Positions 13,229 to 34,520 of a DNA stretch of 64,000 nucleotides are shown piece after piece; positions within the stretch are counted from its first letter, which is position 1, and every line of letters starts with the position of its first letter. The DNA is taken from NCBI GenBank assembly GCA_951406725.2, contig OX597831.1, forward strand, positions 49,662,001-49,726,000, written 5' to 3'. Below the pieces are notes generated by a model, which saw only the letters and a program-made list of their open reading frames with translations, ran no database searches and was not told the DNA's origin. The DNA comes from Octopus vulgaris (Eukaryota). Position numbers and translations under genes: made by a program.

Positions 13229-13290
13229 TTTGGGCTGACGAAAGAAATGTCGAATTGTATTTGGCTGATCTAGAAACGTACGTTCTCAAA
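13229..13290 (+). ncRNA. type I hammerhead ribozyme, copy 1
   Basis: Stem I TTTGGG/CTCAAA; core CTGACGA (13235-41); stem II AGA..TCT with inner GTCGAAT/ATTTGGC; GAAA (13273-76); palindromic stem III ACGTACGT; predicted GUU cut after 13284. The A.A at the base of stem II is atypical. Confidence 0.75.
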
Positions 13291-13791
13291 TAACCTTTGC
13301 ACTTGTGATTTTTTTAATGTTTTTACCCCCATACCTTCGTGGGCTATTTTGAGTAAGCACTATCTGAGAGAAATTTTCTTTAAGTATTAGAATTTGGCTA
13401 AAAAATTTTTTGGCTGCTATTTCTAATGAGTTCAGTATGTGGCAAAGTAATTTATTTTACTAAGCCCTTTATAAAATGTAATATTTTGAATTCGCCTTAA
13501 ATGGTCCCTTTACATACTGAATACTTGGTGAAATTGATTAATAATTAATTAATTTTACCCTCAATTGTTGAAATTATAATTCATTTCTCTCTGTTTAATG
13601 CTTCGGTTTTCACCGATAAAATTATGGTGTTTGCTAGGTTAGCCCACGTGGGTGGAAAGGGGAGGCAGAAATTCTTCGCTTGCATATTTTGAATTTGTTG
13701 GCACTGTTAGTCTGAACGGATCTTCGGAGGTGAAAAGTCGCCAAAAGGGTATGCTCCTACTTTCAGTGTTTACAAATCCGAATTAAGGAAT

Positions 13792-13853
13792 TTTGGGCTG
13801 ACGAAAGAAATGTCGAATTGTATTTGGCTGATCTAGAAACGTACGTTCTCAAA
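13792..13853 (+). ncRNA. type I hammerhead ribozyme, copy 2
   Basis: Identical to copy 1, 563 nt downstream; predicted cut after 13847. Confidence 0.75.
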
Positions 13854-14169
13854 TAACCTTTGCACTTGTGATTTTTTTAATGTTTTTACCCCCATACCTC
13901 CGTGGGCTATTTTGAGTAAGCACTATCTGAGAGAAATTTTCTTTAAGTATTAGAATTTGGCTAAAAAATTTTTTTGGCTGCTATTTCTAATGAGTTCAGT
14001 ATGTGGCAAAGTAATTTATTTTACTAAGCCCTTTATAAAATGTAATATATATATATATATATATATATATATATATATATATATATATATATATATATAT
14101 ATATATATATATATATATATATATATATATATATATATATATATATATATATATGTATGTATATATATA

Positions 14170-14290
14170 TTGGCCTGCTCGCTTAGCCTGCGGGGTGGCG
14201 TCATTTGAAGGCTAAAACAATGCGAAGCGAATTGTGGCCAGCGATGAGTAGCAACATCTGATAGCCTGGTCGGTCACGGTGATCACGGTG
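14170..14290 (+). mobile_element. ~120-bp (TA)n-flanked interspersed repeat
   Basis: Second close copy at 28106-28230; both lie between (TA)n tracts. Confidence 0.8.
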
Positions 14291-14309
14291 ATATATATAT
14301 ATATATATT

Positions 14310-14812
14310 ATATTAATGATTAGGTACTGGAATATCCTTCAGTGATGAATTCCAAAAAGATAGAACCGCTATTTTGGAATTCATCATTGAAGGATATTCC
14401 AGTACCTAATCTTATGTATTGGCTTAAGTTTTTCATTGTATGATTTGCCTAATGGTGGTTTTGTCTCTAATTTAATATAATATAATATTTTACTATAAAA
14501 TTGGATTCAATCCTAAATCTGATTTTCCCTGTAAGTTTGGATTTATTCCCTAATATTTATTATTAATTAATATATTGATAAATTACGTATATTGAGTGTA
14601 ATATCTCAACTTCGTAAATTATGGAATTTACAGGTAAGATAGAACCGCTATTTTGGAATTCATCATTGAAGGATATTCCAGTGCCTAATCTTATGTATTG
14701 GCTTAAGGTTTTAATTGTATGATTTGCCTAATGGTGGTTTTGTCTCTAATTTAATATAATATAATATTTTACAATAAAATTGGATTCAATCCTAAATCTG
14801 ATTTTTCCCTGT
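14310..14812. mobile_element. (TA)n-flanked element with partial direct repeat and terminal fold-back (pseudo-LTR-like)
   Basis: AAGATAGAACCGCTATTTTGG at ~14357 and ~14636 (unit ~279 bp, 1.6 copies); ~14318-14357 is an inverted copy of ~14372-14411. Confidence 0.75.
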
Positions 14813-14866
14813 ATATATATATATATATATATATATATATATATATATATATATATATATATATAT

Positions 14867-31124: not shown

Positions 31125-31415
31125 GGGGCTATCACGCGATTGACAATTGTATAGGTTGCTGTTATATCCTGCGGGTGACAATGAGTATTCCTTCAGTTTA
31201 GCGTTCGAATGATGGCTAGGTGTGAAGGCCAACTTTGCTCCTCATGGGAAGGCTACTCCATCGCTGGGTTACCCATTTACAACTGAGGAGAATGGAGCAA
31301 AAATGAAATGAAGTGTTTTGCTCAAGAACACAACGCACCGCTGGTCCAGGCATCGAAATCACGATCTCACAAAGGTAAGTGCAACACACCTAACCCCTAA
31401 GCCACAACGTCATAA
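31125..31415 (-). mobile_element. degraded tRNA-derived SINE
   Basis: AAATGAAGTGTTTTGCTCAAGAACACAACGC..ATCGAAATCACGATC..CCTAACC is the reverse of the 37796-type head and body. Confidence 0.65.
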
Positions 31416-31649
31416 TGGCGCGAGACTGTCTAATACCATCTGGTTGAAAACTGATGGGAACTTTAGTGACCGTCTCTTTCTATTTTCCGTCCGTTTGTGC
31501 ACTGAATATAGGGTTTTCCTGTTCGTCTGTGCATTTTTTATCTTGCCATTCTGTGACCGTTTTCCGTTTCTGCATTTACAATACATTTTCACACACACAC
31601 ACACACACACACACACACACACACACACACACACATGTATATGTGTGTA

Positions 31650-31840
31650 TCGTTGGCGATTTTCTTTCTCCGTCTTCCCTTCCTTAGACCTTTCTTTTTT
31701 TCTATGTTTCTGACGAAGAGCTCCGCTCAAAACGTTAAATCCTCCTTGTTTCTTTCCTTTCCTGAGCATCCAATAACACTATACTTGTTCAACGCCCTCG
31801 CGTTGTTATGTTTTCTCTTTTTTCATGCTTGGATTAACTA
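31650..31840 (+). mobile_element. short hammerhead-bearing PLE-like fragment (G12A-type lesion)
   Basis: GTTT-CTGACGA-A-GAGC-TCC-GCTC-AAAAC-GTT-AAAT at 31706-31740; ends TGGATTAAC(TA)n like the copy at 45900. Confidence 0.7.
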
Positions 31841-31845
31841 TATAT

Positions 31846-32251
31846 ACTCTTTTACTCTTTTACATGTTTCAGTCATTTGACTGCGGCCATGCTGGAGCAC
31901 CGCCTTTAATCGAGCAACTCGACCCCGGGACTTATTCTTTTGTAAGCCCAGTACTTATTCTATTGGTCTCTTTTGCCAAACCGATAAGTAACGGGGACAT
32001 AAACACACCAGCATCGGTTGTCAAGCAATGCTAGGGGGACAAACACAGACACACAAACACACACAAGCATATACATATATATATACATATATACTACGGG
32101 CTTCTTTCAGTTTCCGTCTACCAAATCCACTCACAAGGCTTTGGTCGGCCCGAGGCTATAGTAGAAGACACTTGTCCAAGGTGCCACGCAGTGGGACTGA
32201 ACCCGGAACCATGTGGTTGGTAAACAAGCTACATACCACACAGCAACTCCT
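31846..32251 (-). mobile_element. near full-length microsatellite-containing tRNA SINE
   Basis: Close reverse complement of 58345-58745. Confidence 0.9.
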
Positions 32252-34139
32252 ATGTGTGTGTGTGTGTATAATCATTTGATTTCGTTTACGGGAGACGTTT
32301 TGTATATGCATATTAAAAGCTCCTATTCTATAATGCCAGCAACACTCTAACGAAGCAAACTGGCGATAGCAGTTTTGGGCCGATATAATGTAGGATAAAA
32401 ATAGTAATAACAATGATAATATTTTAAGAGAATTTATTAATATTTTCATTATTTTTTTCGTCCGAAGAAATGAATGCATAAACATGATCTACCCGATGTC
32501 CATGGATACCACGGACTGCACTGCATTCAGGAATACGGACTATGATCTAAAAAAACATGCAATTTGTGGAAACGTGCGTAGCGATGCATTAAAATATTTA
32601 CAAATTCCATCCATGATTTTTATTGTTATTATATGTATGTGTATGTATGTATACATATATGAATATATATATGTGTGTGTATATATATGTATATATATAT
32701 ATATATATATATATATATATATATATATATGTTAACACACTAGTATATATAAGTGTGTGTATATATATATAAATATACAAGTGTGTTTATACTATGAAGA
32801 CATAATTAGATACGTTTCTCGAACTTAAAAATAATTAAATAAAATACATAAGATGAATTAAAACAAATAACAAAAAAACGTGTATAGTATAAAAAATTAC
32901 CGCGATCGTAAAGCACAAAACCTCATTCATATGACATCAAAAGCAAATAGAACGAAAAAGGAAAGAAAAAGAAAGAAAGAAAACGGTGAAGAAAAATAAA
33001 GAATAAAGAAAATTGATTTAGCGTCTCCGCTTCAAATGAAACACCAATTATCATTTTAGAAACCATTCCTCATTTTCCTTAATTGCTGCTTCACTCACAA
33101 CATCGTTACTTGATTATTATTGTTGTTGTTGTTGTTGTTATTGCTGTTGCTGCAATTGTTGTTGTTGTTGTTGCTACTGCTGCTGGCTTTGTTGTGTTTA
33201 GAAGGTAGGAGTATAGAAAGAGATTTTATATTTCCATTTATTTTTTAAGAAAGTATATACGTCTCTGCAATAGGCTTTGGTGAGCTTCAATCTTAATGAA
33301 ATGACAGTGTGTTTTTGAAATAGAATCTTTCTTCTTCTTCTTCTTCTTCTTCTTCTTCTTCTTCTTCTTCTTCTTCTTCTTCTTCTTCTTCTCCTACGCT
33401 ATCATTATTAACGTTCGTTAAATAGATTTCAAGTAGGCATTTGCGTTGAAGTTATACTTTCTTTAAAAAATCAGCTATTAAAGTACATCTAAAGCAACTT
33501 TACCTGTATCAAGAAAATAGAAAAATACAAAAGCAGAAGACGAGACTTTAGAGATTGAACCTATCCTTCTGTCATACACGATGAATATGCTACACATTGT
33601 TAGGGAAAGTCATAGTGACAGTCTAATTACAATTAACAAAAGTTCGGTGCTTTTAGCATTCGTACTAAAGGAAAAACGCGAGTGTAAATAGTCGAGATAA
33701 TAAGTAAGCGATTAACATATTGATAAGTTCGTTGTTCGAATCCTGTCAACAGCAGTGCGATTTCTTTTTTCATATATATTTTCGCAGATATATTCTTTTA
33801 CTCTCTTACTCCGGTCAGCCGTGCGGCTGCGGTCATGCTGGAGCACCACCGTGGTCTTTTTGATTTTGATTTCTCATCCGCGGTCTTTGTGATTTTGTTT
33901 CTCATCCCCGCTCCTGCATGTTCCTTTGTCCCAATTGTCGATCCATTTATATGTATATATAAAAGTACAAAGTGAGATAGGGGTTATGAGTGTAACCCAC
34001 TATGGGATATCATTCATCCAATATACTGCCAGTGAAGTACCCAAAAGGCTAATAAATAAATGCTTACAATTGCAATGCAATTAGTTCATTTATTGTATTA
34101 TATGGGCGAAGGTAAAATGCTTTAGCTCATTATATATAT

Positions 34140-34520
34140 ATGCTCCCACTTTCAGTGTTTTCAAATCCAAACCAAGGAGTTCTGAGCTGAAGAAAGAAAT
34201 GTCGAGTTGACTAATCTAGAAACGTACGTTCTCAAATAACCTTTGCATTTGATTTTTTAATGTCTTTACCCCCATACTTTCGTGAGTTGAACTGAGCAAA
34301 CACTATATGAGAGAGATTTTCTTTAAGTATTAGAAATAGTTTTAAAAAGTTTTTTAGCTACTATTTCTAATGAGTTCAGTATGTGGCAAAGTAATTTATT
34401 TTACTAAGCCCTTTTATATAATGTAATAATTTGAATTCGCCTTAAATGGTCCCTTTGCATACTGAATACTTGGTGAAATTGATTAATAATTAATTAATTT
34501 TACCCTCAATTGTTGAAATT
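34140..34520 (+). mobile_element. truncated monomer of the ~560-bp hammerhead family
   Basis: Homologous to the 12848 and 29351 units; ends TTGAAATT(AT)n. Confidence 0.88.
34183..34234 (+). ncRNA. type I hammerhead ribozyme
   Basis: TGAG-CTGAAGA-AAGA..GTCG/TGAC..TCTA-GAAACGTACGTT-CTCA. Confidence 0.72.

What the first reader, a model, noticed from the sequence alone, without database searches (positions are those of the whole stretch)
13229..34234. Family copies vary at the one free position of the hammerhead core
Seen: cores are CTGACGA (13235, 13798), CTGATGA (29682 minus, 30520) and CTGAAGA (34187). GAAACGTACGTTCTCA is invariant, stem I tolerates G-U versus A-U, and stem II varies in length. 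Established: position 7 is the unconstrained core nucleotide. All copies have a mismatch at the base of stem II (A.A or U.U) instead of the usual pair, which may be a family-specific variant.
Basis: partly seen in the sequence, partly recalled or inferred. Interest (0 to 1): 0.7.

Follow-up and report, generated by a model that had tools for sequence, protein, structure and literature searches.

The report
Retrozyme hammerheads vary at free sites
These are copies of a common kind of small protein-free jumping repeat that carries a predicted self-cutting RNA; across about 2,200 copies the changes that spread fall at positions already known to tolerate change, so the pattern is real but ordinary.

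Summary
The five motifs are there as described, but they are only three insertions. They belong to a 545-563-bp non-coding tandem repeat with about 2,200 hammerhead copies in this genome, inserted in (TA)n with Penelope-type scars (a non-LTR retrozyme). In 55 insertions picked by their flanks, 0 of 11 catalytic core sites carries a variant that spread, against 108 of 297 flank sites (p 0.008), while one-off hits in the core occur at a similar rate. Position 7 has three widespread states. So the main claim holds, and it is a published pattern (cave-cricket pDo500). Three details fail genome-wide: position 17 is also free (U, or A in about 254 copies), so the 16-mer is not invariant; about 7% of copies pair at the base of stem II (G.U, U-A, A-U); and the U.U mismatch is not family-specific (published for active natural hammerheads, an axolotl retrozyme and two PLEs; also in Neptune-type PLEs of this genome). 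A.A I did not find in print. Cleavage, expression and the driving enzyme were not shown. The scan has noted the same insertion architecture for other retrozyme families of this genome.

The parts
12848..14048 (+). Insertion 1: 2.1 tandem units of the 563-bp repeat, 5' truncated, ending at the short 3' end in (TA)n
13229..13290 (+). Type I hammerhead, C7, A.A at 10.1/11.1, long stem II, predicted cut after GUU at 13284
13792..13853 (+). Second, identical hammerhead of the tandem pair, predicted cut after 13847
13412..13575 (+). Conserved terminal module of the unit holding both fixed 3' ends (about 194 and 292 nt after the cut site); 132 of 164 sites invariant
29349..30181 (-). Insertion 2, inverted arm, 1.5 units, long 3' end at 29349
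29633..29688 (-). Type I hammerhead, U7, U.U at 10.1/11.1
30180..30766 (+). Insertion 2, forward arm, short 3' end; 587 nt 100% complementary to the inverted arm
30514..30569 (+). Type I hammerhead, U7, U.U, predicted cut after 30563
34139..34523 (+). Insertion 3: single 5'-truncated arm, long 3' end in (TA)n
34181..34236 (+). Type I hammerhead, A7, A.A, predicted cut after 34230

Best explanation
The five motifs are type I hammerhead folds, predicted to cut after GUU, in a protein-free 545-563-bp tandem repeat (a non-LTR retrozyme, about 2,200 hammerhead copies) that is likely copied into (TA)n by a Penelope-like retrotransposon, and the variants that spread among copies sit at N7, H17 and the base of stem II, likely because only RNAs with a working catalytic core get copied again. 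Shown: copy number, architecture, per-site pattern. Inferred: an array is transcribed; the weak ribozyme (2-bp stem III with palindromic ACGUACGU, opened base of stem II) cuts slowly and probably as a dimer of neighbouring units; the unit RNA, likely ligated to a self-paired circle, is reverse-transcribed from both cut target strands at two fixed internal sites, running through the cut site. After insertion each copy decays without selection, so core mutants appear but stay private. The stem II mismatch is a tolerated, weakening state inherited by subfamily, not a new catalytic design.
For: (55 insertions, 140 copies picked by flanking patterns): 0 of 11 core sites with a variant in 3 or more insertions against 108 of 297 flank sites (Fisher p 0.008); rare events 3 of 605 site-insertions in the core against 136 of 15,159 in flanks (0.5% vs 0.9%, p 0.39); N7 has three spread alleles, as only 8 of 297 flank sites do. 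(42 insertions, tree parsimony): core 0 changes, flank mean 1.05 per site, permutation p 0.0002. G8 changed in only 10 copies, 6 insertions, genome-wide (short-stem forms). H17 U/A fixes the register of stem III. Stem I 2.2-1.2 G.U/A-U and a stem II pair running C-G/U.G/U-A. Unit GC 33-35%, longest sense ORF 24 codons; circular fold z -6 to -10 on the hammerhead strand in 6 of 6 units, 12 shuffles each; 12 two-sided changes in 151 consensus pairs against 1-5 in 8 column shuffles. 55 of 57 two-armed insertions join one long and one short 3' end. Intact 781-aa RT + GIY-YIG ORFs of Neptune type exist in the genome. Literature.
Against: No cleavage was measured; 8 of 9 Xenopus retrozyme dimers did not cleave in vitro and the ribozyme was dispensable for a PLE's insertion in vitro. 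The predicted monomer fold is marginal: hammerhead fold 0.0 to -5.7 kcal/mol against MFE -4.6 to -10.0, z-scores of the isolated motifs near 0, and with U17 a 10-bp palindrome that pairs A14 with U17 (-13.0) beats the active 8-bp register (-11.2). Rfam finds none of the five. 189 of 297 flank sites also lack spread variants, so the contrast is significant but not huge, and the whole RNA looks constrained. 5' ends do not pile up at the cut site (4 of 161 within -3..+6). No autonomous element sharing the 3' module was found among 70 GIY-YIG loci.
Confidence: 0.82

Rival explanations
1. The hammerhead no longer cuts; it is conserved as a protein-binding or folding element (or simply sits in a well-conserved part of a structured RNA), and N7 varies by CpG decay and founder effects in a few master copies.
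For: Three weakening features together (U17, open 10.1/11.1, 2-bp stem III); marginal fold energies; 46 of 75 arms run through the cut site and 5' ends do not cluster there; C7 to U7 is a CpG transition; only about 4 changes at N7 on the tree.
Against: CpG decay hits C7 and G8 alike as private events (2 insertions each among the first 100 of 286 rows), yet only N7 changes spread; A7 arose by non-CpG changes; the sites that vary (7, 17) are exactly those that catalysis leaves free, and 17 takes U or A, not G, in all rows seen. U.U and U17 hammerheads of this build are published, and the axolotl U.U form cleaves.
Confidence: 0.1
2. The open base of stem II is actively selected as a brake: a slower ribozyme lets multi-unit or circular RNA survive long enough to be reverse-transcribed, so paired versions are kept rare.
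For: 93% of 2,193 copies are mismatched. On the midpoint-rooted tree A.A and U.U are linked through a small U-A group (30 copies), so the family held a Watson-Crick pair and mismatched forms outnumber it about 50-fold. U.U recurs in unrelated PLE hammerheads.
Against: One path on one tree; the root is not established and U-A may be a recombinant of the two subfamilies. G.U and U-A sublineages did spread over many chromosomes, so pairing is not barred. Subfamily sizes depend on master-copy luck.
Confidence: 0.15
3. The repeat is the detached terminal repeat (pLTR) of an autonomous Penelope-like element, i.e. truncated copies rather than an independently replicating small element.
For: PLE-type scars; retrozymes derive from pLTRs in Xenopus.
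Against: Arms longer than one unit continue into another unit, up to 12 units, never into coding sequence in the 91 merged loci; none of 70 GIY-YIG loci has this unit as its 3' repeat; the unit has its own subfamily tree. Origin from a pLTR stays possible.
Confidence: 0.06

Closest known systems
Metazoan non-LTR retrozymes (Cervera and de la Pena 2020, PMC7229834; parts 1-4 of 6 read, supplement unreadable), above all axolotl Rtz_353 with HHR_Amex2
   Same: Low-GC, non-coding tandem units each with a type I hammerhead; 2-bp helix III with tetraloop; U.U mismatch at the base of helix II; predicted self-paired circle; co-existing PLEs.
   Different: Unit 545-563 bp against 170-400 there (within 51-972 of Li 2026); A.A, G.U, U-A states too; GUU cut site in most copies; the predicted circle ties up the 5' strand of stem I, unlike most animal retrozyme circles; no RNA evidence here.
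Hammerheads of Penelope-like elements (Cervera and de la Pena 2014, PMC4209133; parts 1-2 of 4 and parts 1-2 of 3 of supplementary file 2, machine-read)
   Same: Palindromic short helix III, frequent U17; in Fig. S3 the D. willistoni and Hydra PLE rows show U opposite U at the base of helix II, the former followed by the same A-U, G-C, A-U pairs as here.
   Different: Most have an extra nucleotide after A9 and G10.1-C11.1; here a symmetric 1x1 mismatch and a bulged, longer stem II; no ORF.
pDo500 satellite of Dolichopoda cave crickets (Martinsen et al. 2010, PMC2837043; passages)
   Same: About 500-bp repeat with a hammerhead; core more conserved than the rest; most core changes at U7; G.U/compensatory changes at 1.2-2.2.
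   Different: Keeps a paired 10.1-11.1; described as satellite DNA, without the dispersed two-armed insertions.
Natural U10.1.U11.1 hammerheads (Perreault et al. 2011, PMC3088659; section 8 and passages)
   Same: Stem II starting with U.U; N7 and H17 given as free positions.
   Different: A.A is not mentioned in the passages seen.
Retrozymes as non-autonomous PLE derivatives (Li, Clavereau, Pollet 2026, 10.64898/2026.07.22.740005; parts 1-3 of 5) and the PLE tail (Craig 2021 PMC8557442, Frangieh 2024 PMC11167929; passages)
   Same: 5' truncation, inverted 5'-truncated copy, tail at one end, two internal RT start sites, microsatellite targets.
   Different: Tail about 98 nt instead of 30-40; strict one-long-one-short pairing (55 of 57); no partner pLTR found.

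Membership tests
Type I hammerhead ribozyme | Core C3 U4 G5 A6 N7 G8 A9, G12 A13 A14, A15.1-U16.1, H17 | tested here: met
   All five window copies; 11 core sites without a spread variant in 55 insertions; consensus as
Type I hammerhead ribozyme | Three helices, helix I open-ended | tested here: met
   Helix I 5-6 bp, helix II 3 bp + internal loop + 3-7 bp, helix III 2 bp; weak energies; some covariation
Type I hammerhead ribozyme | Paired 10.1-11.1 (usually G-C) | tested here: not met
   Mismatch in about 93% of 2,193 copies; U.U is a published, active exception
Type I hammerhead ribozyme | Match to Rfam Hammerhead_1 | tested here: not met
   No hit on the five copies
Type I hammerhead ribozyme | Loop 1-loop 2 tertiary contact | not tested
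   Stem II internal loop and flanks are partly conserved but no contact was modelled
Type I hammerhead ribozyme | Site-specific self-cleavage | not testable with these tools
   Needs an in vitro assay
Metazoan non-LTR retrozyme | Tandem units each with a type I hammerhead | tested here: met
   Arrays of 2-12 units
Metazoan non-LTR retrozyme | Non-coding, low GC | tested here: met
   GC 33-35%; longest sense ORF 24 codons, antisense 92 in one of two units
Metazoan non-LTR retrozyme | Unit size | tested here: inconclusive
   545-563 bp: above 170-400 but inside 51-972
Metazoan non-LTR retrozyme | Highly self-paired predicted circle | tested here: met
   z -6 to -10 in 6 of 6 units; 12 two-sided changes
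Metazoan non-LTR retrozyme | Expressed as linear and circular RNA | not testable with these tools
   Only contigs of runs not on record as RNA were available
Non-autonomous element mobilised by a Penelope-like element | 5' truncation, inverted 5'-truncated copy, tail at one end, microsatellite target | tested here: met
   57 two-armed insertions among 91 loci, 55 long+short, ends in (TA)n
Non-autonomous element mobilised by a Penelope-like element | Autonomous partner sharing the 3' end | tested here: inconclusive
   None in 70 of 148 listed GIY-YIG loci (6,136 candidates)

The most novel reading that the evidence does not exclude
Penelope-driven retrozymes are selected for a slow ribozyme: this family keeps the base of stem II open (A.A, then U.U), passed through a Watson-Crick U-A state without staying there, and mostly uses GUU, so that uncut multi-unit or circular RNA survives to be copied by an RT pair that primes both target strands at two fixed sites. 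Its natural allelic series (A.A, U.U, U-A, G.U, A-U by U17/A17, with copy numbers) would let one relate cleavage rate to retrotransposition success, and A.A would be a natural core-adjacent variant that I did not find in print.
Probability: 0.15. Interest if true: 0.5.

Novelty: new member of a known kind. Interest (0 to 1): 0.2.

Why it matters
As stated, little: conservation of the core with change at U7 is the expected, published signature of a hammerhead under selection. The modest value is that spread versus private variants separate cleanly, which is genomic evidence that an intact core is needed for copying in the animal, whereas one in vitro study found the ribozyme dispensable for PLE insertion. 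The family also offers a ready natural series of stem II and cut-site variants for a kinetics test.

Tried and rejected
Rfam scans found none of the five motifs. Alternative register with C17 (stem III shifted by one) rejected: it lacks one core A, and U/A variation marks position 17. Reading the 10.1 base as the 'extra nucleotide after A9' of PLE hammerheads rejected: the shifted stem pairs worse and is impossible for A.A. Pile-up of 5' ends at the cut site: 4 of 161, about 2-3 expected, not significant. Circle versus uncut multimer from variant periodicity inside arrays: mixed, undecided. Autonomous partner: not found in 70 GIY-YIG loci; hits in L108, L139, L143 are related non-autonomous ends inserted beside PLE remnants. 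Expression: no RNA holder listed; contigs of three runs only guessed to be RNA and one unlabelled run cover parts of the unit but show nothing on strand, ends or level. The haplotype table was cut by a faulty pattern and was redone. Insertions picked by similarity to the hammerhead itself or by core-containing patterns were left out of the per-site tests. Searches for A.A or cephalopod hammerheads in print gave nothing; the library lacks most subscription papers, the supplement of PMC7229834 and file 1 of PMC4209133 could not be read, and one Fig. S3 row of PMC4209133 has an extra A before GAAA that the machine-read text does not let me assign.
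Full report
Observation. All five cores, the 16-mer, the G.U/A-U pair in stem I, two stem II lengths (31 and 25 nt) and the A.A or U.U opposition at 10.1/11.1 are at the stated places. They are three insertions, not five samples: a tandem pair 563 bp apart, an inverted pair with 587-nt arms that are 100% complementary, and a single truncated arm. The fold is type I: helix I of 5-6 bp, helix II of three pairs, an internal loop and 3-7 more pairs, helix III of two pairs capped by GUAC (palindrome ACGUACGU), cut predicted after GUU. Rfam does not detect these motifs.

The element. The window lies in a 2.8-Gb animal genome; earlier scan notes call it a cephalopod, which I did not check. 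A 24-mer from the conserved end occurs 3,404 times and a pattern spanning the hammerhead 1,857 times, with 0 matches for reversed controls. Units are 545-563 bp, 33-35% GC, without a sense ORF over 24 codons in the two units tested, and fold as circles far better than shuffles (z -6 to -10 sense, -2.6 to -5.1 antisense, 12 shuffles each); a consensus fold of 16 diverged units has 12 two-sided changes in 151 pairs against 1-5 in 8 column shuffles. Insertions sit in (TA)n, have scattered 5' ends and two fixed 3' ends about 194 and 292 nt after the cut site. Of 91 merged loci, 57 are two-armed head-to-head, and 55 of these join one long and one short end; the 17 simple two-armed arrays with clearly classed ends among 20 more loci do the same. 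These are the PLE scars described by Craig 2021 (passages) and the two internal RT start sites of Frangieh 2024 (passages). Neptune-type RT + GIY-YIG ORFs, some intact at 781 aa, are in the genome, but none of 70 loci examined carries this unit.

I used only insertions picked by flanking patterns. In 42 insertions the 11 catalytic positions show no change on the tree against a flank mean of 1.05 per site (permutation p 0.0002). In 55 insertions (140 copies) 0 of 11 core sites have a variant in three or more insertions against 108 of 297 flank sites (p 0.008), while rare events are 3 of 605 in the core and 136 of 15,159 in flanks (p 0.39). N7 is U in 30, C in 15, A in 10 insertions; G was in none of the rows listed, which with so few events means little. 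Genome-wide, G8 is changed in 10 copies of 6 insertions in the short-stem forms. Among the first 100 of 286 rows, C7-to-U and G8-to-A each appear in two insertions, as CpG decay predicts, yet only N7 changes became subfamilies. So the core mutates but its mutants are not copied on. Caveat: 189 of 297 flank sites are also free of spread variants, and the terminal module is nearly as conserved as the core.

Position 17 is not U in 254 copies (first 100 all A), so the 16-mer is not invariant and N7 is not the only free core site; Perreault 2011 gives N7 and H17 as free. At 10.1/11.1 the exact-pattern counts are U.U 1,584 (1,357 + 227), non-U opposite A 447 (first 100 all A.A), non-U opposite non-A 132 (first 100: 90 G.U, 8 A-U, 2 C.U) and U-A 30: about 7% of 2,193 are paired, and the G.U and U-A forms spread over many chromosomes. 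The patterns differ slightly in gap length and one flank base, so the shares are approximate. U.U is not family-specific: it is described as active in natural hammerheads and as the best-tolerated mispair (Perreault 2011, section 8, citing Ruffner 1990), in axolotl HHR_Amex2 (22% cleavage in an hour as monomer, more as dimer), is visible in the D. willistoni and Hydra PLE rows of Cervera 2014 Fig. S3 (machine-read), and sits downstream of the endonuclease in five loci of another Neptune-type family here (L104, L136, L139, L204, L209). U17 is common in that same figure. Concentration of core changes at U7 was published for pDo500 (passages). A.A I did not find.

How it likely works. Inferred from the anatomy and from Cervera 2014 and 2020: read-through transcription of an array gives multi-unit RNA; the weak monomer (hammerhead fold 0 to -5.7 kcal/mol, 4-9 above the MFE) is likely helped by pairing of the palindromic stem III between units (-11.2 kcal/mol for the active 8-bp register; with U17 a 10-bp register pairing A14 with U17 is -13.0); unit RNA is likely ligated by a host ligase; a PLE enzyme nicks (TA)n and primes both strands at the two start sites, running through the cut site (46 of 75 arms cross it, 24 exceed a unit). 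Whether the template is a circle or uncut multimer is undecided, and 5' ends do not cluster at the cut site (4 of 161). Against a needed cleavage: 8 of 9 Xenopus dimers did not cut and PLE insertion in vitro did not need the ribozyme.

The boldest reading. On the midpoint-rooted tree A.A and U.U subfamilies are joined by the small U-A group, and G.U and A-U arise inside U.U. If the root is right the family held a Watson-Crick pair and left it, which would fit selection for a slow ribozyme. It is one path, U-A could be a recombinant, and paired forms do spread, so I give it 0.15.

Verdict. Real feature, correct main reading, known kind and known pattern. Interest 0.2.

Noticed in passing
window 15005-15095 (+): A separate hammerhead with G10.1-C11.1 and a long stem II; the only Rfam Hammerhead_1 hit in the window (31.5 bits, below the cut-off of 34).
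   Followed up: no
window 45925-45975 (+) and 31705-31760 (+): A short dispersed family with a minimal PLE-type hammerhead (extra A after A9, GAGC/GCUC stem); the second copy has G12 changed.
   Followed up: partly
window 54300-54640 and 47850-48290; L108, L139, L143: Related families sharing the terminal module at 70-80% identity, with the same head-to-head ends in (TA)n.
   Followed up: partly
window 48700-48780 (+): GAAACGTACGT preceded by a 9-bp hairpin but no intact CUGANGA: a degenerate or differently wired hammerhead-like motif.
   Followed up: no
L150:2664-5006 and 5882; L107, L112: Young Neptune-type PLE with many intact 781-aa ORFs whose 3' end holds a U3-A8 hammerhead variant with U or A at position 17; U3-A8 is published for PLEs.
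   Followed up: partly
L133:2844, L148:2582, L207:2023: Another PLE family with a U3-A8 hammerhead and a C.A opposition at the base of stem II.
   Followed up: no
L181 (G000:C3:21.72 Mb) and L183: An 8-unit array with a period-4 pattern of intact and G8A hammerheads, and a period-3 variant at one site in another array: multimeric template or later duplication.
   Followed up: partly
L173-L178 (G000:C1:213.67 Mb): A heterogeneous 5-unit array whose inverted arm matches the units next to the junction, as fold-back copying or gene conversion between arms would give.
   Followed up: partly
window 14318-14411, 15952-16378, 58058-58180: Other long palindromic insertions flanked by (TA)n, likely two-armed remnants of further families.
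   Followed up: no
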